From Daphnia carinata (lineage: Eukaryota), in NCBI RefSeq assembly GCF_022539665.2, contig NC_081332.1:4836001-4900000 (forward strand): a DNA stretch of 64,000 nucleotides, in the 5' to 3' direction. The notes beneath the pieces were generated by a model that saw nothing but the letters and a program-made list of their open reading frames with translations, was not told the DNA's origin and did no database searches. The translations under genes and the position numbers were made by a program. Below, in pieces: positions 15,573-63,310 of this stretch. Within the stretch, counting starts at the first letter, position 1; the number at the start of each line of letters is the position of its first letter.

Positions 15573-17287
15573 TTAAAAGTTAGCTACCAAAAAATCTGTT
15601 ACATGATCAACGTCGGAAGGAGATTGCCTAACCGCAAGCTCACCAATTTTCCTTAATGTTTCCACTTGATACATTTCGGAAAGTTGTACTAGTTGTCTAT
15701 TGGCGGCGGATATTCCTAAACAACCAGTGTAAATGAATCGCAAAAATTGTTCCAAAACATCTGGATCCGTAGACGAATCGAACGTGACATTCGGTTTTTC
15801 GGTTCCACTTGTTTTACACAGCAGGGCATTCAGTACTGGACTTCTTGTTGCCAGTACAACCTTGTGGGCTTCCATTACCTTGTCGTTCCCGATGAATATG
15901 TCAACATCAGTGAAGTGTCGATCGACGGCCGCCTGCCAAAGTTCTGTGATCCACAACGTATCCATAATTTCGTAATGATAATGTTCGACAGTGTTTCTCA
16001 TTTTGATGCAGAAACTGATACTCTGTCTTTCGTAGAACGAGTCAACAGTTTGGGCCATAAAGAGGAACAGTTTCACCTTGTCCTCTTTCTTTGGTTTCAT
16101 TTTTATCCATTTCCTGAAATCGGTCGAATAAAGTACTTCGGTTACCTCGAAGCCAAGGCTTCCATAATCCATGCAAATGAGATGAATCCAAGGCTTTTCT
16201 ATGCTGTTGCTGTATAACATTTTACCGGTGAGATGCGGGGAAAACAGTCTGTTGTATTGATGTTCAATAACAACGTTTGGTAAAAGAGCTGCTGAATTAA
16301 TTCCAAATTCCCAGGAACACTGAAATGTGGATACAGCGGGGTCGTAAAATATTTCCGTCTCTTTGTCCGGCCTATTATTTAAATTCCCATAAATCATTAC
16401 ATAAATTGTTGGGTAGTTTACAATAAGTTTTACCATGTCAGAACATAAGGCGGTGATTTAGCACATTCCGCATGCAACGCAGTAGCTTCTGGATTGAGAC
16501 TAGCTATGCAACTCATTATTTGTTGGGCATCAATCTTTCTCAGTGCAGATCGGCACAAATTAAGTAGAGTTGTTAACTGATAACGTTCAGCCAATTTCAT
16601 CAACTGTTCTTTAGCCAGAAATGGCAAATTCGATTCGCCAGTGTAGAGAAAGTAAAGGAATTCTTCCACGATCGCAGGGTCTACATCGTCCATGTGGATT
16701 TTAGGAGGGCCATCTCTTTCTGGCTGTTGACTAGCGAATTCTTCTGCAAATACTGGACTACGAGCAGCCAAAATGGCTTTGTGGGCAGCAAATGTCTTAC
16801 CCTGACACACAATTTCAACGTCGGTCCAATGTTGATTTTTGAGGGAAGCATTCCAAAGCTGGTGTTTAACCAGTCGATCGGTCAACTGGTAAGAATAGGA
16901 AGAGACACTGCCTTCAATCCAAATTGAGAAGACGAACGTACACTTCCCGACAACCATTTCAGTGAGATCAGCTATGAAAAACTGCAAACTCTTGCTATTT
17001 TTCATCTTGTTCCCCACTTCTTTTTCTCTCATCTTTTGATGGGTTTCTGAGTCTTGTTTACCATATCTGACCTCTCTTACTTTCATTCCAATAGTGTTCA
17101 AGTTAACTACCAATAATATTACAATAGGTTGATTCTTCTTTTCATTTTTGATGCAAACTCTGAAGATTTTCTCTCCGTGAAACATGATCATTTGTGATGA
17201 AATGGTTTCGGGGTCCTTCTCGATATTTTCCAGTACCCATTCGTAGCACACCATCATCACCGAGTTCCCCGTAATATTAGCCGGCAT
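15573..17287 (-). CDS. Tandem (N-domain+BTB)x2 protein, SPOP/roadkill-like; exons 17287-16434 and 16371-15573
   Basis: Two BTB motifs: WTDVEIVCQGKTFAAHKAILAARSPVF...FLYFLYTG and FTDVDIFIG...AHKVVLATRSPVL...FLRFIYTG. A phase-2 intron TG|GT...AG|G joins the two ORFs. Confidence 0.85.
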
Positions 17288-18010
17288 TTTTCTTTAATAT
17301 TGCTACACCAAAGTGCTGCAGTACCATAGAAGAATACATCAAGTAAAAAGGAACCTTTCATTAATGATTGAAAGTTGAAAAAACTCGCCTGTAATTACAA
17401 ACTGTGTTTTTCCGACCGAAAAATGCCTTACGCAGAGATAGTCCGGTGAAGTCTACATCCAACCCCTACAACGTACAGACTGAAGGCAGTTGCCGCGTAT
17501 TCTCTTTGCCCGAAGGTAAAGAAAGAAAAAGCGTTTGGCAACGTTGTATTTAACATTTTATTCCCCTCTGAGTTGGTAACGACCTCCTATCTTGTTGAGT
17601 GGGCTCGAGGTAAAGAGCATTTCCCTGGCGTTTTCAGTTTTGAGAACGTCCCTCATTGATATCGTCGTCTAAAAATATATGACTTTAATAACAGCTACGT
17701 GTTTTATGCATAGAAAGCAAGTATAAATAAATCCCTGTGTTTCATAACAAACAGAAACGATGTCATAGCAACTGGTCTATTCCCAGCCGGAAAACATTGA
17801 TGGCTTTCTTCGTAAAATATTTAGAAGCGATTTGGGCACGTTGAAACTAAAAGTTGAATGACTTTCCAAGCTGTTGCAATAACGATAACATTCTTTGTAT
17901 TGGTCTAGACAATCAGCACACAAAACCGTTAACTTAAACCATCTGTCGATGAAGTGTTTACGTTTCATTAGTAACAAATGAAAAAAGGAACTTGACAAAG
18001 GAAAACTCTT

Positions 18011-19938
18011 TTAGAAAAATGTGAGCATGAAGGTCGTCAGTTTGTCGACGTCTGGAGAAATTTCGCTCACCAATCTGCTAACTTTGCTCAACGTTTTCGT
18101 TTCGTATATCGTGGCCAACGCAGCTAACTGAGTTTGGCTGACGGATGAATCTAGCGAACCCGTATGAAGAAATTTCAGAAACAGATTCACGACTTCCAGA
18201 TCCATTTGAAAAGAAATGGCAGGTTTGTCTGTAATGTCGACTTTACAGGGAAGAGCATCTAATTTGGAAGTGACATCCGGAGAAATACGATTGGCCAGTT
18301 GGCAGATTTTTAACAACGTTTCAACTTCGTACGATTCAGCCAATTGAAGAAGCTGTTTGTTTGTGGCTGACATGTCCAAACGACCAGTATACAGGAACTT
18401 CAAAAACACTTTAACTACTTCAACATCAATATTTTCTTCTACAGCCATTGACGATCGGCCCAGGTGATCGATTTCACCCAACAGGAGATTCAAGACTGGA
18501 CTACGTGCAGAAAGAACAACTCTGTGAGCTTCGAGTTTAACAGCACCGACGAATATTTCCACATCCGTCCATTTATGCTCTAACGCGGACTGCCAAAGTT
18601 GGGTTGTCCAAGACGTGTCCATCAGTTCGTAATGGTAGTTTTCAATAGTGCTGGACATTTCCATACAAAATGTTACACGACATCCGTTACGAAACGTTTC
18701 ATTCGTTTGCCCCACGAATAGAAATAACTCGACGCCTTTTGCTTTTCTCGTTTTCATTCCGATCCAAGTTTTCCCATCCGTCGAATAAAGTCCACTTAGA
18801 GCTTTGAAACCAAAGCTGCGATGATTTACACAGACTAGATGGATCCACGGGTTCTTTACGACGGATACTTGCATCATATTCCCGGTGAGATGTGGGGAAA
18901 ACAACTTCTCGTGTTGATATTCAATAACAGTGTTGGGAAAGAAAACTCTAGAATCGATCTTCGGTTCCCAACAGCATTGAAATGTAGACATACTCTGATC
19001 GTGGTCTATCACAATCTCCGTGTTTGGTCTAAAGTCAGTATATAAATAACGTAAAAATGTGATCATTAAGCTCGGATATTTTCGTACCTGATCAGGACAG
19101 ATGATGAGGGCTTGACTTCCAGGTGCATGCTAGTAGCTGCTGGGTTTAAACTAGACATGCACGCCATGGCTTGTTGGACATCGATTTTGGTTAACGCAGC
19201 CCGACACAGATTTTCGAGAGTTTTTAGTTGATAACGACTGGCTAATTTGAGAAGCTGAGCATTAGCTAACGCCGTTTTCGGTTGGCCAGTGTAGACAAAG
19301 TAGAGGAATTCTTCCAAGGCTGATGGTTCGACATCTTCCACATGGATTTGATGAGGACCCGACTCGTGTTTTGCTGGATGATCTTTGGCAAATTCAGCTG
19401 CAAAGATTGGACTGCGAGCAGCAAGAATGGCTTTGTGGGCGGAAAATGTTTTCTCTTTACATACCAACTCGACGTCTATCCCATGCTCCTGTTTGGCGGA
19501 GGCATTCCATAACTGTTGTGTCATAAGACGATCGGAGATGTGGTAAGAATATCCAGTGACACTTCCTTCAATCCAGATTGAAAAAGTAAACATACAATTG
19601 CCCGAAACCCTTTCATGGAGATCGGCAGTGAATAGCTGTAAGCTTGATGCGCCCTTTTTCTCTTTCTTAATTTCTTTTTCTTCCATCTTTAAATAGCACC
19701 GTGTATCTTGTTTACTATATCGAATTTCTTTCACCCTCATTCCCATTCTATTGAGATTGGTGGCCAAGAATAACAAAGTAGGATACCCATATGTTATTTT
19801 CTTCAAACAGACACGGAATATTTTCTCTCCACTAAAGAGAATCATCTTGGATAAAACTGTTTTGGTTTCTTCTACATTTTCCAATGTCCATTCGAATGAC
19901 ACCACCAACATCGACGTGCCCGAAATTGTCGCTGCCAT
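18011..19938 (-). CDS. Paralogous tandem double-BTB protein with an extra partial BTB at the C-terminus; exons 19938-19088 and 19028-18011
   Basis: Same architecture and intron position as 15573-17287. AHKAILAARSPIF and AHRVVLSARSPVL motifs, plus a repeated FLKFLHTG...ISPDV segment. Confidence 0.85.
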
Positions 19939-20870
19939 GGCACGGTCTATTCTGCAGTTGTGTAGAAACAATTCACAAGTTAAGAGAGAAAGCAATTCAC
20001 GACAGTGACGTGAGAAAATAGATTTATGCAAGAACCTGATGTGCTGTTAATATCGTTCCTTTCAGTGTTTTTGCTGGTGGCAATTTCGAATAGCAAACAG
20101 GAAGCTTTGCAATGTGTTAAGACTACGATCTGCTGGAGCAATGCCTTTCCAACCTTTCTTTTCTAATTTGTGGACAACTAATGGAGGAAAAACAATGAAA
20201 CTGCATCATTTCAACGTTTTGTTTCTAATTGCGTTGACGATGTTTCCCTGGAATCGCCCCCTGTGATTTGGTTCTTCGAAGGGCCTTAACCGAGTACGAC
20301 ATATGGAAAAATTGTTTACAGTTGAAGATGAACCCGATATTGACTTCCATATTGTTTTTGATCGGCCAACGGGAAAACTTTTCTTGTTTAGTATAGAATA
20401 ATCTACAGTTTAATGGCCTGTGATTTTATTTCGATATATCTTCTGTTGGCCGGTTTACCCAAGTGTTTCTGCTGTGGTTTTACAGCAAAACTTAACTCAA
20501 TAGACTTCCCACATGTTTTTATTTCTCGTCATTTTCCACAGACAAAAAACACAATTGTTGGAGAAAGCCATGACTTGTTAAGACGAGCAATGACGTTGAA
20601 CGTAGGCAGATTAATGTAGAAGTAAACAAAAGAGGTTTATTGGCAATAAATTACAAACTGCACTCAGTCAACTTAGTCCATGCGGCATTCCTGTTTTATT
20701 GAACAGCAGATAACAAGATCGGTTATGTAACCTCAATTATGGTCCCTAAAAAAATTAATTCGAAATATCAACCTCTTCGAAACTCAAATTTAAATATTCG
20801 TCTTCAGTAGCTTAGGCAAATGATGTTTTGACAAAAAAACGATTGAAATGGGGGAAGGGTGAGAAACGCC

Positions 20871-56764: not shown

Positions 56765-57229
56765 TTAAAGAGTTGTACACACCGATATGAAGCAAACAAA
56801 CGTTGGGAAAACGATATTAAACTGGATGGAGAAGAGAAGCACTTTTAGTCCAAAAAGTGGGCCGTTCAGCAGACTTACGATGACAGCGAAGATTAGAAAT
56901 GGGCCCAGAAAACGTGGGGTTAAAAGTTTGTTGAGACAGCGATTCAAGACGGACACTAGTGAGGAGGAAACCCGTTTATTTTGACGAGGCGCTTTCATCG
57001 GCTTTGCAGCTAGAGAAGATTTCGTAGTCGTCATTTCATCGTCGGCCATTCCATTCGAGGTAATGTTATCTTCAGCAGGAATTGTTACGGTCAAAAATGA
57101 CTGCGACGGTTCAATGTGAAAGCTGCGTTTAATTGCTTCGTTACGCTCTGTTGCCGTGTAGGCTAGGGAAACTAGAGATGAAATCAGAAACAGCCAAACG
57201 AGTTGTTCGCTTGCCAAGAAAACTGGCAT
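56765..57229 (-). CDS. Orphan protein with an N-terminal hydrophobic signal and a hydrophobic C-terminal segment (~154 aa)
   Basis: ORF from ATG 57229: LVWLFLISSLVSLAYT, S/T-rich middle, FLGPFLIFAVIVSLL...VFPTFVCFISVC. No family recognised. Confidence 0.5.
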   Translation of the reverse strand: MPVFLASEQLVWLFLISSLVSLAYTATERNEAIKRSFHIEPSQSFLTVTIPAEDNITSNGMADDEMTTTKSSLAAKPMKAPRQNKRVSSSLVSVLNRCLNKLLTPRFLGPFLIFAVIVSLLNGPLFGLKVLLFSIQFNIVFPTFVCFISVCTTL

Positions 57230-58281
57230 TTTGCTGACTGATGAAAATGGACTTGCACTTGGGTTTACACACGTCGCTTTCACCGCATTCATACGATAGG
57301 TAAGCGCTTTCACCTCCTTCTTTTTTGAGAAATGAAAAGTAATAGTAAGGTTGATTTCGCCAAGACAATGCTCTTTGAGAAATAACTGGAGTAAGGGCTT
57401 GTAAAATCTCTGGAATTGCGTCCCACTCCTTACTAGGCCACATGTCATGCAAAAATAGTTTAACGCATTAAGGGCATCGTAGGGAAGGGTAGGATTCCGT
57501 TTATGTTGCGTCATCGCCTCGGGTTCGTAAAACTGAAAACTTGACATTTCACAGGGGCAGGACAACGTAACTAAAATTTTATTTAAGTTAATGTGGTTTT
57601 ATTAGCTTTCAAAAGGAACCGAGATTATAGCGGGTGGAGTTCATTAAATGTTTCAAAAACTAAATATGCATCTACGTATTTGGCATAGCCTTAAAGAAAG
57701 AAAACCAGGAGAGAGATAGCATTATTGGAACCAGGGAAAGCTAAAAAAAAATCGTAAATGGAAGACAAAACAACCGGTTGTACGAATAAATTAACGGAAT
57801 TTTATAATGCCGAGTTTGGGGACAATCTTTGAAAGCGAGCATGATGCCAATGTCGCCATGCTCCAGTCCTTCGCCATAAAAGAAAGTTATCCCAGAATCA
57901 ACGACCAGTCAAATTTCGCTGTGCGTCACTCTATTTGAGGATGGTAAATGCGTTTGAATATTATTTTTGAACAACCTAAATTTGGTGATTTACTACATGA
58001 GGGTTTTCTGGTTCAGTAACTGGACCAGAGGGGGGAGAGGGTTGGGGTTTAAAAATATCTGGATGTAATACTTTTTAGTGACGTCGCATTTACCGTTTTA
58101 GAATACTTTACAGAGCAGCCAAGAAAAAATGTTAATATCGAGAAATTGTATTATAAGAAACCATTTTTGACTTAAAATTTTGATAAACCGAATGACAATA
58201 TTGGCATACGTAAGACAAAAAATCCAAATTCAGGGACCACGGTCACAGAGAACGATTCTGTGTCACCTTTAGAAGAAGTTT

Positions 58282-58638
58282 TTAAGAGAGCTGTACAGCG
58301 AGAACAATGACTACAATAATAATGATAGTGGTGACGGTACCAACGGCAATCAGCGTCCATTTCATATCTTTCCACCACATTTTCCTCTGAAGCCTCGTGC
58401 TGGCGACGTGGAAATCTTGGGCTTGGGTTTCCAACGTCGCGGCGCGCATTTCCAGTTCGTTGAGGTTGCGCTCTCGGGCTTCGATGCTCTCCAAATTCTT
58501 GCGCATAACCTGAACAACTTCATCCACTTGTCGTTGCGTCTGCTCAATCTGCGATGGTAACCGGCTCGATAGCTGTTGACCAGGAACCGTTGTCACAGTT
58601 AACTGGGCAACTGCAGGCACTTCCGCAGCTTCCGCCAT
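58282..58638 (-). CDS. Synaptobrevin/VAMP-family R-SNARE, intronless CDS
   Basis: QTQRQVDEVVQVMRKN...ARERNLNELEMRA...RKMWWKDMK followed by a C-terminal TM anchor. Confidence 0.9.
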   Translation of the reverse strand: MAEAAEVPAVAQLTVTTVPGQQLSSRLPSQIEQTQRQVDEVVQVMRKNLESIEARERNLNELEMRAATLETQAQDFHVASTRLQRKMWWKDMKWTLIAVGTVTTIIIIVVIVLAVQLS

Positions 58639-59247
58639 CGTCTTAGTAGCACAATGCACTAGTGGTAAAACAGGATTTTCGTAATGTCAGTTATGAGCAC
58701 GAAAAAAAGATGAGTCAGCAGTGCCAGCGGAACCCAGTCAGACGTCAATTTGTTATCTTTGAGCTATCATCTCATATTTCTCATCTCGATTTCTCCACAT
58801 TTCGTTACCTTTTTCGCCCTTTTTGGATGACACGGAAACTAGCAGACATGAAAATGTTCTTGTCTCTTTCAGTTCCAGTTTTGATTTACAGATTTACGAC
58901 AAATGTGGGACGGGGATATATTAAAAATATTTAGAAATCTTACCTGCAGCGCTAAAAGCAAAACTTTGAAACTGAGGATGCGATAGTCAGTGAAGTGAAA
59001 AGCTAACTACCTTATCGTGTTCTAACGTAGTTTATCTCTTGATCACACTATCTGGACGTTATATCGGGGGGACATTAGGCCGCCATCTAGCATGTAACGT
59101 AATAGTTTAAAACTAGTTTAGCCGCCTAAGTTATGACTAATGCACACAATTTATTATATTTTGGCATTTATAATTCAAACAGATACAATAACGATCAAGA
59201 GTCCTGCTCGTCTACAGTTAACATGATTTCAAAAACAACAAATGGCG

Positions 59248-60183
59248 TTAATAACGTTCAGCTCCTTCGCGGGCCAGTCGTTTGGCGCCTGAAGATCCAT
59301 CGTCGTATATTCCTGGGCCTTTGAGGTACTTCCATTCTACATCCATCTCTTCTAAAGTAAATAAAAGTTCACGCCATAATTTCCGATGTTTTATTAAATT
59401 TCCAGTCGTCTTCCTCCAGCCGTTATCCATCCAATAAAAGATGAGGTTTTCATTGACGTTGCGGAGGTATTGAGACTCTGTATGGATGGCCATGCGACCG
59501 ATTCCCCACGCCTTGGCAATTTTAATCGCTTCGATAGCTGCTCTGATTTCTGCAGCACTTTTAGTCGTGTCATCTCGGTCATCTAGCGGCTCACTCAGAT
59601 TTCTGGTAATATCAAGTTAACATTGTAAAGACTTACAACGTGTACTTAATAATTTAAATGATTACAATTTATGATTACGCCCAAACCAAACGCCAATGCC
59701 AGCCTGAGCATCCGGATGGCCTTGCTGAAGACAGATGCCATCAGTATAAACGCGAACAAATCCGTTTCGATTGATGCTAAAATTGTGAAGCAATTTCTCT
59801 GGAGCGGCGGGAGGGTTAACGTAACGGGTCGATCCGATGCGCATCAGGTCGACTATCCACTCGGCATTCTGGGCGGCTTCGCACAAATCGTGCCAGGAGA
59901 CATCCTCGTCGGGGATGTGTTCGAAAAGGTAGGACGAATGCAATTCCCTCCAGACGGCACGCTGCATCCCCCTGACAAGCACATCTTTCTTGACTCCACG
60001 ACGGAACAAACTGAAATCCGGATCGGGGAAGTCGCGACATCCATAGGCTTCCATGAAAGCTGCATCAATACGACGGGTAAAATTACGGATGCGCTCAGTC
60101 CTTCCCTGTTTCATCTTCTTCAGTTGATGATGATGATAGTACATTTTATTCTCTATCGACGAAGTATCCGTCGATGCGTACAT
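59248..60183 (-). CDS. Chimeric protein (290 aa): retrotransposon Gag capsid-CTD-like domain fused to an RNase H1 domain; exons 60183-59666 and 59602-59248
   Basis: MHR-like LKKMKQGRTERIRNFTRRI and WHDLCEAAQNAE. RNase H1 motifs VYTDG...AGIGVWFG..HKL|N...AEIRAA...TESQY...WMDNGW...LAREGA. A 63-nt GT-AG intron restores the frame. Confidence 0.8.
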
Positions 60184-60685
60184 TTTCGAACCTAAATGGA
60201 ATTTTAATGGACTTAACTGGGTAATTGAAAAAAGTAGAGATAAGTTTACCTTTTGCACTTGAACTACTACAAATAATATTTTTGTTTAGGGGGAATTATT
60301 TGCGAATGATGTGATACAACTGAACGGTTTGGCCGTCAGCGATTGACTGGTGTTCTTATCGGCTCAGCAGCGGACTGTCATGAGAGAAAACGGAGAAAGG
60401 ACAAATCTTGTTGAGACTAACAACGGGAAAGTAGAGCGAAGAGTATATTTTTATTAAATAAAAACAAGGTGCTGTGGCGATTTCTTTCACAAAATCGAGC
60501 CAACCGGTTTGTGTCCCTTATAGATTGTCACATTGCGGTTAACCCGCAAATGCAGAGCTGGGGACCTACATCGATTGGAGGCAGTAACGAATAAGTAGCT
60601 TGATTCTTTTTAATTCGTTTTTATTGATCTGATAAATTTTAGTTTAGTAAGACGAAAAGTGTTTAGGATTGAGTGTGAATGCATT

Positions 60686-62192
60686 TTAATGCATTTGCAT
60701 ACTGGGGACTAAAAAGAAATTTGGCGACCTTTCCGCACCGTCGCCTTTAATTGTCCGTTCGATATCAGATTGGCGAACTCGGAAAACGAATGTGAAGATG
60801 ACACCAAAGAGCAGAGCTTCAGCTAGGGTAAGCAAAGCATCGATATCTGCATTATAAATTAATGGTAGATTAATTTCCTGTTTTTTTTTCCCACAATGTA
60901 CAGTAATTGTCAAGTGAGTTAGGCTGAGAGATTGCGACCGGTTGGATCGACCTACTTTGTTTCATATGAACGGGTGAAATAGCCGGTGGCAAACATGGGA
61001 TGTAATTAGTATAATCCACTAGCAATCCCAGCACGAAGAATTGAATCTTCATGACAGCGATAAATAGAGTCAAAGCGTGTGCCTTTTTCTACACAACGTA
61101 AAACGTAAGTTATAGTTAATAATTATATAAGCACATCAGATACGAAGAAAGAGAAAATGGGGAAAGGTTACCATGCGACGATTCCAGTTTGATCTCTCTA
61201 ATCCCTTAAACGTCTTGATGATAACGTTAAAACCCCAGTTGCCCAACATGCACATTAGGACGTTCAGGCCAGCTAGGGTTTGAAACAGAGGCACCACGAT
61301 GTGCTGCATTAAAAAAATGTAAAAAGTTTATGTTTTGATTATGGGATATGTGGCCCAAAAATTTACTTCGGGAAGAAATTGATTTATTTCAGCTATTTGC
61401 AGAACGACAGCAGCCATCGTTAGCAGAAATTGCCACAGTGGTGCTTGATACACTCTTCTCCTCATAGCTCGGAATCCTCGTCTATAATGAAAGGTATTTT
61501 TTTTTTTTGAGATTACAACGATAGTATTTTGGCCAAAAGAATGACTCACCTGGTAACGATAGAACTCTTACAGCACATACCAAAGAAGCAGCAAGGTGAT
61601 GCGCATAGAGACATTGGAATTCGATTGTCCATCAGTGTGTTAAGAATTTGCTCTTCGTCACCATCAATCATTAGTGCCAGATCGAGAAAATGCATCAACA
61701 TGAATGGCATATACCTGAAAATATCAAGGTAAATTTTTTTAAATATTTTTATTTGCGTAAAATTTGATGTACGCTTGTTTGACAATGCTGCAGAGATCAC
61801 CCGCCCGTGGAACGAGAAACGACGTTATAGAGAGCCAAGAGATTATCATAGGCATGGAAACTAATAACCATAGGAAATCAGTCAATTACAAAAAAAGTGA
61901 TGAGCCAAGAATTTTACCAATCCAGCTGAGAGGACGTTGCCATTCCCACGGACATTTCCTGATGTTAGTGCAAATTTGGATGAGGAAAAGAAGCGTTAAC
62001 AGGCCAGAACTGGCTGTTCCCCCATAAGCGATACCCAGGCCAATGACACCGAAAGCTGTGATAAACGAGGTATGCTCGATTTCAACGATATGCAGTACGA
62101 GAAAAACATTTTGATTGTTTACCTTCAAAGTGTTGCGAAACATCGGGATGTTCGCTGTCAAACTCGTATTGACTGCAGTTGAATTCTAGCAT
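60686..62192 (-). CDS. Organic solute transporter alpha-like protein (SLC51A/OSTA-TMEM184 family), multi-exon
   Basis: About 7 hydrophobic segments, Cys cluster SPCCFFGMCC, RRRVYQAP, IPCLPPAISP. Frame-consistent GT-AG chain from the ATG at 62192. Confidence 0.75.
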
Positions 62193-63310
62193 AACATCTT
62201 GTGACAAATTCATGATGAGACGACACCAATCACAACAGTTTTACCGGCCAGACTAAAGTGCCGCACCCACAGGTGTAAAGAGCGACCACGTCTAGTACCT
62301 GAAGTTATCTCAACGTCACTATCGTATTACTTCATATCGGACCGCTGATTAGGAACCTCCAACAATCATCCCTACTGATAAACGCAAGAAAAAGGTATTC
62401 GTAATAGTTTAGCACGCGTTTGTGTTTAGATTAATGTTTTCCTTATTTTATATCAATATTAAATTCCGATGCTTGTCAATTTTTTAGATGGTTCTTAACA
62501 AACCAGATTTCATAAGTAATTATGATGTCAAAGCGATATAATTTACCGTTACGTTCCTGTAAAGCAGGAACTGGAGCAATTAGGCATAGTCGTGATCAGG
62601 CCCGACAACGTTATGTTCTAGTAAAGCCAAAATTTAACGTGGCTTTTCTCGAAAATTAGGTTTCTTATTTTGTACAAAAGCCAGTCTTGTTATATAGCTG
62701 CCTGCGTGTAATCATTCCTGTTTAGGTCTTCTCGCGGTAATCCTCTTGATACAACTTGTTCTAGTTCCTTGCATGACGGGATTGCAACGGGGTTTCGTGG
62801 AAATGAGCTCGTATCATTAAATATTGCACACAAGAACTTTAACCGTAATGAACGAACAAATATTGAACACAAGGTTGAATTTCACAAGCAGATAAGCCAA
62901 ACATTTGTCGGTACGTTCCCGAAACGCTGTCCTTGCTCATGTTCCAAATACCCGAACTGCTTTTTTTTTTTTAAGTTTTTGTTTCTTAGAATTTCGAAGT
63001 CTCAATGACGAAGCCTTACAGCTCGAATTTAAAACTGCACAGTGAGTCCGTAAAATTCATAGAACAAAAGAGAAAGTTTGTTTTTGCGTTCTTTTTGCTT
63101 TTCTGGCTTTTGCAATTCTCGGAAAACGTGTTATCATTGAATTTCCATTCTTGTCCGGTTAGGATCCCCCAACAAATTGATAACTATAAAATTGATTGTA
63201 TAAAAGAGTGTAATTCGTTCGATTTGCTACTTTAAAAAAAAAAAAGTCAGCTCGGCTATTTTACAACGGGAAGCATTCAATTTTACCCATGCATTTTAAT
63301 TGCTCAAAAT

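What the first reader, a model, noticed from the sequence alone, without database searches (positions are those of the whole stretch)
59248..60183. Spliced host gene fusing a retrotransposon Gag capsid-like domain to a cellular-type RNase H1 domain
Seen in sequence: one intact 290-aa frame with a GT-AG intron inside the RNase H domain and a probable 5'UTR intron (~60249-60192). No LTR, protease, RT or integrase lies nearby; the neighbours are ordinary host genes. The N-terminal ~120 aa carry LKKMKQGRTERIRNFTRRI, matching the capsid major homology region pattern (L..Q..E....F/Y..R.), and end in WHDLCEAAQNAE, like the last CA-CTD helix. Established knowledge: the C-terminal half (YTDG..AGIGVWFG..H.LN..AEI.AA..W..NGW..LAREGA) is eukaryotic RNase H1 type rather than LTR-element RNase H. 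Cellular RNase H1 normally has a hybrid-binding domain where this Gag-like part sits. Gag-derived restriction factors exist (Fv1, Ty1 p22). Inference: a domesticated anti-retroelement factor that co-assembles into virus-like particles through its CA-CTD and brings an RNA:DNA-hybrid-binding domain to reverse-transcription intermediates. It could alternatively be a self-assembling R-loop binder.
Basis: partly seen in the sequence, partly recalled or inferred. Interest (0 to 1): 0.88.

Follow-up and report, generated by a model that had tools for sequence, protein, structure and literature searches.

The report
Water-flea capsid-RNase H fusion genes
A water-flea gene joins half of a jumping-gene capsid protein to a copy of the cell's own RNA:DNA-cutting enzyme RNase H1; it belongs to a gene family whose intact members likely carry the enzyme into retrotransposon particles, while this strongly conserved copy is predicted to have lost cutting.

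Summary
The minus-strand gene (60183-59245, 290 aa) is spliced as described: both introns are removed in transcript-type contigs of relatives. It sits between the same two host genes in D. pulex (one flank) and D. galeata (both flanks), with dN/dS about 0.025 in the N-terminal domain. That domain is a Gag capsid C-terminal domain (CA-CTD). Its profile finds zinc-knuckle Gag proteins, and the top 28 structural matches of its model are all capsids. The C-terminal domain is cellular RNase H1 and keeps an intron site of canonical RNASEH1.

New here: it is one member of a family from a single fusion. I found about 50 diverged proteins, tandem intron-bearing copies without LTRs, members with an intact active site, dead members, and a subfamily keeping the whole capsid. 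This copy lacks the equivalents of Asp210, His264 and Asp274, and its orthologues lose different catalytic residues, so it is likely a pseudo-nuclease.

The family resembles a natural form of engineered Gag-RNase HI 'capsid-targeted inactivation'. Binding to Gag and restriction are untested. This copy is only 26-34% identical to the Gags in hand and evolves slowly, so a host dimerisation or scaffold role is a close rival. Five paper searches found no description.

The parts
60250..60304 (-). Part of a 5'UTR exon (start of the transcript not located)
   Evidence: X4 contig lays on 60255-60304 and joins to 60190
60192..60249 (-). 5'UTR intron, 58 nt, GT-AG
   Evidence: sequence; skip of 64 with 6 letters between in X4, loose end in X3
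59666..60183 (-). Coding exon 1 (aa 1-173): capsid domain, linker, first strands of RNase H with Asp148
59824..60144 (-). Gag capsid C-terminal domain, aa 14-120
   Evidence: profile hits to Gags; model pLDDT 84.8; all 43 listed Foldseek rows and the top 28 VIA rows are capsids; dN/dS 0.025
60067..60123 (-). Major-homology-region-like segment, aa 21-39 (L..MKQ...E.IR.F..RI)
   Evidence: aligns in register with the Gags; Gln26 in at least 90% of 62 rows; the MHR label is recalled
59603..59665 (-). Coding intron, 63 nt, phase 2 in the Leu of H-x-L|N; same site as in all family loci and as the frame break of canonical RNase H1 genes
   Evidence: 9 of 12 genomic frames with the RNase H1 N-terminal domain stop at the same offset
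59245..59602 (-). Coding exon 2 (aa 173-290 and stop): rest of the RNase H1 domain; Glu191 kept, Glu215 for Asp210, Pro269 for His264, Lys280 for Asp274
   Evidence: Pfam RNase_H E 2.4e-11; best PDB match of the orthologue is human RNase H1, E 4e-23; residue table
60695..62216 (-). Upstream neighbour: organic solute transporter alpha-like host gene (synteny marker)
   Evidence: tblastn of D. pulex EFX87771; Pfam Solute_trans_a
58282..58638 (-). Downstream neighbour: synaptobrevin/VAMP host gene (synteny marker)
   Evidence: Pfam Synaptobrevin E 6.7e-26; same order in D. galeata model CAH0112188

Best explanation
A spliced, syntenic, strongly conserved Daphnia host gene joins a retrotransposon capsid C-terminal domain to a copy of cellular RNase H1, and it belongs to a family from one inferred fusion whose intact members likely carry RNase H into LTR-retroelement particles, while this copy, predicted to be nuclease-dead, would act by binding alone. 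SHOWN: two-domain anatomy, splicing, synteny, purifying selection, tandem paralogues with RNASEH1-type introns, intact and eroded active sites, a whole-capsid subfamily. INFERRED: a gag capsid sequence (likely Ty3/gypsy) was captured ahead of the catalytic exons of a duplicated RNASEH1 and replaced its hybrid-binding domain as the address. The ancestor had the whole capsid; most descendants kept only the CTD. UNTESTED: the CTD joins assembling Gag lattices as Ty1 p18 and Drt2 do; intact members then cut RNA:cDNA intermediates; dead members such as this one poison assembly or pair with active paralogues.
For: Capsid origin: the exon-1 profile finds 12 long Gag-like proteins at E 2.6e-7 to 1.6e-4 among 1.84 billion. 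Of these, 3 of 12 pass Pfam Retrotrans_gag and 7 of 12 have a zinc-knuckle hit (2 over the cut-off); one cluster holds D. pulex proteins. Fold: with Drt2 among the matches (Z 7.2, rmsd 3.7, 88 aligned). Cellular RNase H1; shared intron site. One origin: 12 of 12 family RNase H domains form one side of a branch, 99/91; 48 family CTDs stand apart from 10 Gags, 100/99. Whole capsid in the D. sinensis subfamily: 182 columns, probability 99.4. Intact sites: 4 of 10 complete members keep all four acids and the His (L028, L001a, L043a, P0036), and 40 of 54 keep the first Asp (one motif missed by the script was counted by eye). Between paralogues the CTD diverges more than RNase H in 4 of 5 pairs. Precedent: CTD-only restriction factors (PMC8458377, PMC10951436 abstracts); engineered Gag-RNase HI blocks MLV (PMC5035972 passages); loss of cellular RNase H raises Ty1 cDNA about 3-fold (PMC4214602 passages); D. 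pulex holds 333 intact LTR elements (PMC2996953 abstract).
Against: No binding or restriction data. The window CTD is 26-34% identical to the 10 Gags compared, and the other CTD-only members average 21%, while yeast CA-CTD restriction is highly subfamily-specific (PMC12530519 abstract). dN/dS is 0.025 in this lineage and 0.18-0.32 in paralogue CTD pairs: no sign of positive selection or of tracking a changing target. This copy lacks catalytic and several hybrid-contact residues. The Gag set is small and was chosen by the query's own profile. The good model was folded with 10 Gag rows among 62; the model from 9 close rows alone was poor (pLDDT 43.5). No Foldseek row reached E 0.001, and the best VIA Z of 10.0 is modest for a helical domain.
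Confidence: 0.48

Rival explanations
1. The capsid domain has become a plain dimerisation module, as the gag-derived SCAN domain did. The family makes homo- and heterodimeric RNase H enzymes and pseudo-enzymes for host RNA:DNA hybrids (R-loops, germline or stress genome care), and this conserved dead copy is a scaffold or regulator of active paralogues.
For: Very low dN/dS; single syntenic copy whose lineage is a slow clade apart from the fast paralogues (96/97); catalytic residues lost at different places in different orthologues while the rest is kept; low identity to present Gags. SCAN derives from a gag gene (PMC8321522, Results); its role as a dimerisation domain is recalled.
Against: Does not explain why one subfamily keeps both capsid domains, or the birth-and-death pattern of tandem copies with fast-diverging CTDs. 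Canonical RNase H1 with its own binding domain already serves host hybrids. No SCAN entry is among the 50 VIA rows (inconclusive).
Confidence: 0.36
2. The family builds its own Arc/PNMA2-like capsids: whole-capsid members form the shell, and CTD-only members are incorporated as cargo or modulators (as RTL8 is for PEG10), for RNA transport or signalling and not for defence.
For: Six whole-capsid members with a dead RNase H; PEG10, MOAP1, PNMA2 and Arc domains rank among the top structural matches; RTL8 antagonises PEG10 particles (PMC11684626, search listing only).
Against: The window protein has no capsid N-terminal domain and no zinc knuckle; most members are CTD-only; a retained active RNase H has no clear use in such a shell.
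Confidence: 0.12
3. The unit is a non-autonomous mobile element or an internally deleted gag-pol of an LTR element that had captured a cellular-type RNase H.
For: An LTR-type pol with an extra cellular-type RNase H exists (P0189); one family locus has a DNA-transposase frame about 2 kb away.
Against: Spliceosomal introns at fixed sites inside RNase H: three in 6 of 7 copies examined, and the seventh is cut by the contig end after two. No terminal repeats, no RT or integrase seen nearby, conserved neighbours in three Daphnia genomes, tandem copies only 32-55% identical per domain, and P0189 falls outside the family clade.
Confidence: 0.02

Closest known systems
Ty1 p22/p18 and the domesticated Drt2 restriction factor of yeast (PMC8458377, PMC10951436, PMC12530519; abstracts)
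   Same: CA-CTD without the N-terminal domain; Drt2 is a host gene; fold match to Drt2 (Z 7.2).
   Different: No enzyme is fused in yeast. They are close to their target Gag and subfamily-specific; here the CTD is 26-34% identical to the Gags seen, introns are present, and it is a multigene family.
Engineered capsid-targeted viral inactivation, Gag-RNase HI fusions (review PMC5035972, passages; the 1997 primary papers were seen only as cited there)
   Same: Capsid protein N-terminal, RNase H C-terminal; proposed delivery of the nuclease to RNA:DNA intermediates.
   Different: Artificial, whole Gag, bacterial enzyme. Here it is natural, mostly CTD only, with eukaryotic RNase H1, and this copy is predicted inactive.
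Co-opted gag genes of animals: Arc, dArc, RTL/PEG10, PNMA/MOAP1, SCAN, Crtg1 (PMC8321522, abstract and Results part 1 of 2)
   Same: Host genes from LTR-element gag, kept in synteny under purifying selection, some expanded by duplication.
   Different: None of the 14 events is in a crustacean (D. magna was in the screened list; only events above family level were counted), and 'RNase H' does not occur in the main text.
Eukaryotic RNase H1 (RNASEH1; PF00075 with N-terminal PF01693)
   Same: Catalytic domain sequence, upstream F-x-V-D-x-D-G motif of arthropod-type members, intron site in H-x-L|N.
   Different: The hybrid-binding domain is replaced by a capsid domain; this copy lacks Asp210, His264 and Asp274 equivalents.

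Membership tests
Retroelement Gag CA-CTD fold | Sequence homology to the C-terminal capsid half of Gag proteins, MHR-like segment in register | tested here: met
   hhalign 98.0%, 105 columns (Gag set chosen by the same profile)
Retroelement Gag CA-CTD fold | Helical fold matching solved CA-CTDs | tested here: met
   top 28 of 50 VIA rows (Z 10.0-6.3; first non-capsid 5.8) and 43 of 43 Foldseek rows; no Foldseek E below 0.001
Ty3/gypsy as donor superfamily | RT phylogeny or pol order of the donor element | tested here: inconclusive
   PF03732 and a weak PNMA hit point to Ty3/gypsy, but Copia, PEG10 and MOAP1 tie structurally; no donor pol obtained
Eukaryotic RNase H1 | Catalytic domain closer to cellular RNase H1 than to retroviral or LTR RNase H | tested here: met
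   human RNase H1 E 4e-23, bacterial 6e-11, foamy virus-type 0.005 or weaker; clade among HBD-bearing proteins (no LTR-type RNase H in that tree)
Eukaryotic RNase H1 | N-terminal hybrid-binding domain (PF01693) | tested here: not met
   no hit in exon 1 or the full orthologue
Eukaryotic RNase H1 | D-E-D-D active site and His | tested here: not met
   window copy D-E-E-K, His to Pro; met in 4 of 10 complete family members; human numbering recalled
Eukaryotic RNase H1 | Shared intron position | tested here: met
   9 of 12 HBD-bearing genomic frames stop at the same offset; the second and third family introns could not be compared with a canonical gene
Domesticated gag gene | Synteny across species, purifying selection, expression, no mobile features | tested here: met
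   synteny above genus level not tested
CA-CTD restriction factor (p18/Drt2 type) | Associates with particles and lowers retrotransposition | not testable with these tools
   needs bench work
CA-CTD restriction factor (p18/Drt2 type) | Close kinship to the Gag of a resident target element | tested here: inconclusive
   26-34% to 10 Gags; the genome's own Gag set was not available
LTR retrotransposon or non-autonomous derivative | LTRs, pol, dispersed near-identical copies, no host introns | tested here: not met
   copy number in the whole genome not testable

The most novel reading that the evidence does not exclude
Water fleas evolved, once and long ago, a natural capsid-targeted nuclease: a host gene family that uses a captured Gag capsid domain to put RNase H1 inside retroelement particles, and that diversified into armed, disarmed and whole-capsid forms. 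It would be the natural counterpart of engineered Gag-RNase HI antivirals and a new class of animal retroelement restriction factor.
Probability: 0.4. Interest if true: 0.93.

Novelty: new variant of a known kind. Interest (0 to 1): 0.8.

Why it matters
Known domesticated capsids either build their own shells or block assembly by themselves; I found no report of a host gene that couples a capsid domain to a host nuclease. If the intact members act on particles, nature arrived at capsid-targeted inactivation, and Daphnia, which reproduces clonally much of the time and carries hundreds of intact LTR elements, gains a testable protein-level defence beside piRNAs. If the rival holds, it is a SCAN-like birth of a new dimerisation domain on an enzyme. 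In both cases the databases call these genes 'uncharacterized' or 'RNase H domain protein', and Pfam misses the capsid part.

Tried and rejected
Complex prediction of the window CTD with a Gag capsid (P0055, residues 8-192): no answer, score 0.00, alignments not used by the tool; no evidence either way. Pfam and PDB sequence searches of the N-terminal part alone found no capsid family. The fold from the 9-row alignment was too poor to search. The ESM Atlas gave no usable hit for the orthologue. No whole genome is held, so copy number and the genome's own Gags are open. No run on record as RNA was listed; splicing rests on contigs of relatives. A search for longer fused forms found 8 proteins, none with the capsid part as far as read. 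A scan for donor elements in viral contigs found none. The motif scan gave 65 metagenome loci and 1 viral locus; 5 were family loci, 1 had a weak hit, 60 had none. The human RNASEH1 exon boundary could not be found in print, so I used genomic frame ends instead. PMC191470 is not held. The sister group of the family among RNase H1 proteins is unresolved. Four short or gappy rows (P0027, P0040, P0049, P0058) were left out of the CTD tree. dS is saturated in several paralogue pairs. The supplement of PMC8321522 was cut when stored; bioRxiv supplements and subscription journals were not seen. Chance resemblance and mobile element were considered and rejected.

Full report
THE GENE. The finding is a minus-strand gene with ATG at 60183, a 63-nt GT-AG intron (59665-59603, phase 2 in the Leu of H-K-L|N) and a stop at 59245-59247, giving 290 aa. 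Contigs of relatives skip exactly this intron in 2 of 4 runs laid (X1, X3), and one X3 contig spans 60193-59404, joining the N-terminal part to exon 2. X4 and X3 also support the 58-nt 5'UTR intron. The runs are only guessed to be RNA and are about 90% alike to the window; precise loss of GT-AG introns is the evidence for transcripts.

A HOST GENE, NOT AN ELEMENT. Full-length 291-aa orthologues are on record in D. pulex (EFX87772, XP_046464195) and D. pulicaria (XP_046655031), named 'uncharacterized' or 'RNase H type-1 domain'. The D. pulex entry with the adjacent accession is the solute transporter that lies upstream in the window, and a D. galeata model fuses transporter, this gene and synaptobrevin in window order. 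The gene fills about 2 kb between these neighbours. There are no terminal repeats and no frame over 372 aa in the window. Against one relative's contig, 90 codons of the N-terminal domain show 33 silent and 6 non-silent changes: dS 1.13, dN 0.029, ratio 0.025.

THE N-TERMINAL DOMAIN IS A CAPSID CTD. Pfam and PDB sequence searches see nothing there. A profile of 9 close homologues run over 1.84 billion proteins returned 206 hits; of the 150 listed, 12 are long Gag-like proteins matched only over this domain (E 2.6e-7 to 1.6e-4). Three pass Pfam Retrotrans_gag and seven have a zinc-knuckle hit; one cluster includes D. pulex proteins. The alignment is in register from the MHR-like segment to the last helix. 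A model from 62 rows has pLDDT 84.8. All 43 Foldseek rows listed and the top 28 of 50 VIA rows are retroviral, retrotransposon or domesticated capsids: Copia Z 10.0 (rmsd 4.3, 104 aligned), PEG10 9.7 (2.8, 85), MOAP1 9.5 (2.7, 100), MLV 8.9 (2.9, 85), Drt2 7.2; the first non-capsid has Z 5.8. Caveats: no Foldseek E reached 0.001, the Z values are modest, and 10 Gag rows were in the folding alignment. The donor is likely Ty3/gypsy, but no donor pol was obtained.

THE C-TERMINAL DOMAIN IS CELLULAR RNase H1. The orthologue's best solved match is human RNase H1 (E 4e-23), far ahead of bacterial (6e-11) and retroviral domains. Canonical proteins carry PF01693 where the capsid domain sits. Nine of 12 genomic frames with that domain stop six residues after the GxGVWF motif, as most family frames do, which is the mark of the same phase-2 intron. 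A retroelement would not be expected to keep such introns (established knowledge), so the RNase H came from a duplicate of the host gene.

A FAMILY FROM ONE FUSION. The same search gave several dozen diverged proteins with CTD plus the start of RNase H; 54 were tallied. A motif scan of metagenomes gave 5 family loci of 65, holding 8 copies, with three in tandem on L001 and two on L043. Of 7 copies spliced, 6 have three GT-AG introns at identical sites and phases, and the seventh shows two before its contig ends. Repeats in the three loci scanned are paralogous coding and upstream stretches only. The 12 family RNase H domains form one side of a branch (99/91) among 33 other RNase H1-type rows; the sister is unresolved. 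The 48 family CTDs stand apart from 10 Gags (100/99); the window's lineage is a slow clade of 8 (96/97), and six proteins form a clade (99/96) that keeps both capsid domains, one from D. sinensis. The simplest history is capture of the whole capsid with later loss of its N-terminal half (inference). Named members are all Daphnia; the family's reach beyond the genus is unknown.

ACTIVE SITES. Four of 10 complete members keep D-E-D-D and the His (L028, L001a, L043a, P0036); six do not, three of them the window's own lineage. The window copy has Asp148 and Glu191 but Glu215, Pro269 and Lys280 in place of human Asp210, His264 and Asp274, and the Asn151, Asn182 and Asn240 equivalents are changed (numbering and roles recalled). 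Among orthologues, P0183 keeps the third Asp but not the fourth, and P0005 and P0008-P0010 lose the first. Different losses on a conserved background indicate that catalysis is not what selection keeps in this lineage (inference). Hybrid binding is uncertain.

HOW IT MOST LIKELY WORKS. A capsid CTD alone restricts Ty1 by joining Gag (PMC8458377, PMC10951436, abstracts). Engineered Gag-RNase HI fusions are packaged and block MLV (PMC5035972, passages). Yeast lacking cellular RNase H accumulates about 3-fold more Ty1 cDNA (PMC4214602, passages). D. pulex has 333 intact LTR elements, nearly half gypsy (PMC2996953, abstract). So I read the family as capsid-addressed RNase H, with this copy as a disarmed member acting by binding (0.48). 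Against it: the window CTD is 26-34% identical to the Gags in hand, restriction in yeast turns on three interface residues (PMC12530519, abstract), and no pair shows dN/dS near 1. These fit a SCAN-like dimerisation or scaffold role (0.36). A self-built Arc-like capsid system is third (0.12), a mobile element last (0.02). The anatomy and host status are near certain; the function is inferred.

NOVELTY. The survey of 2,011 proteomes lists 14 deep gag co-options, none in crustaceans, although D. magna was screened; it counts only events above family level (PMC8321522: abstract, Results part 1 of 2, term search of text and a truncated supplement). Five searches pairing Daphnia or Cladocera with RNase H, gag and domestication listed no paper on such a gene; passages of two Daphnia papers mention RNase H only in general. 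Subscription journals were not searched. The scan's own notes hold no look-alike sequence and one unchecked moss gene of similar build. Verdict: a real, undescribed family, a new variant of domesticated gag genes; interest 0.8.

Noticed in passing
P0170 (D. galeata CAH0112188): An 802-aa gene model fuses the transporter, this gene and synaptobrevin; likely a mis-annotation, but it records the gene order.
   Followed up: partly
window 59245-59602 against L001, L028, L037, L043, L051: The window's lineage has one intron in RNase H; paralogues have three. Two introns were likely lost in this lineage.
   Followed up: partly
window, aa 272-275 of the protein (exon 2): The loop that normally holds the catalytic His carries a Y-D-D-G motif kept in orthologues (P0164, P0183); the two Asp might serve as substitute metal ligands.
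   Followed up: no
P0060 (D. sinensis KAI9565372) and P0046, P0063, P0092, P0131, P0138: Subfamily with both capsid domains and a fully eroded RNase H site; candidate particle-forming host proteins.
   Followed up: partly
P0189: An LTR-type pol fragment with RT_RNaseH followed by an intact cellular-type RNase H; outside the family clade.
   Followed up: partly
L028:4446-5342: DDE_Tnp_4 (Harbinger-type, label recalled) transposase frame about 2 kb downstream of an intact family gene.
   Followed up: no
window 15576-20046: Tandem pair of long related frames with 72-78% repeats 2.65 kb apart; not examined.
   Followed up: no
window 56765-57598: A 277-aa stop-to-stop frame on the minus strand without a Pfam hit.
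   Followed up: no
earlier finding e1-9936167 (another genome): An unchecked note reports a peat-moss gene joining half a capsid to a dead RNase H; if right, the same pairing arose twice.
   Followed up: no
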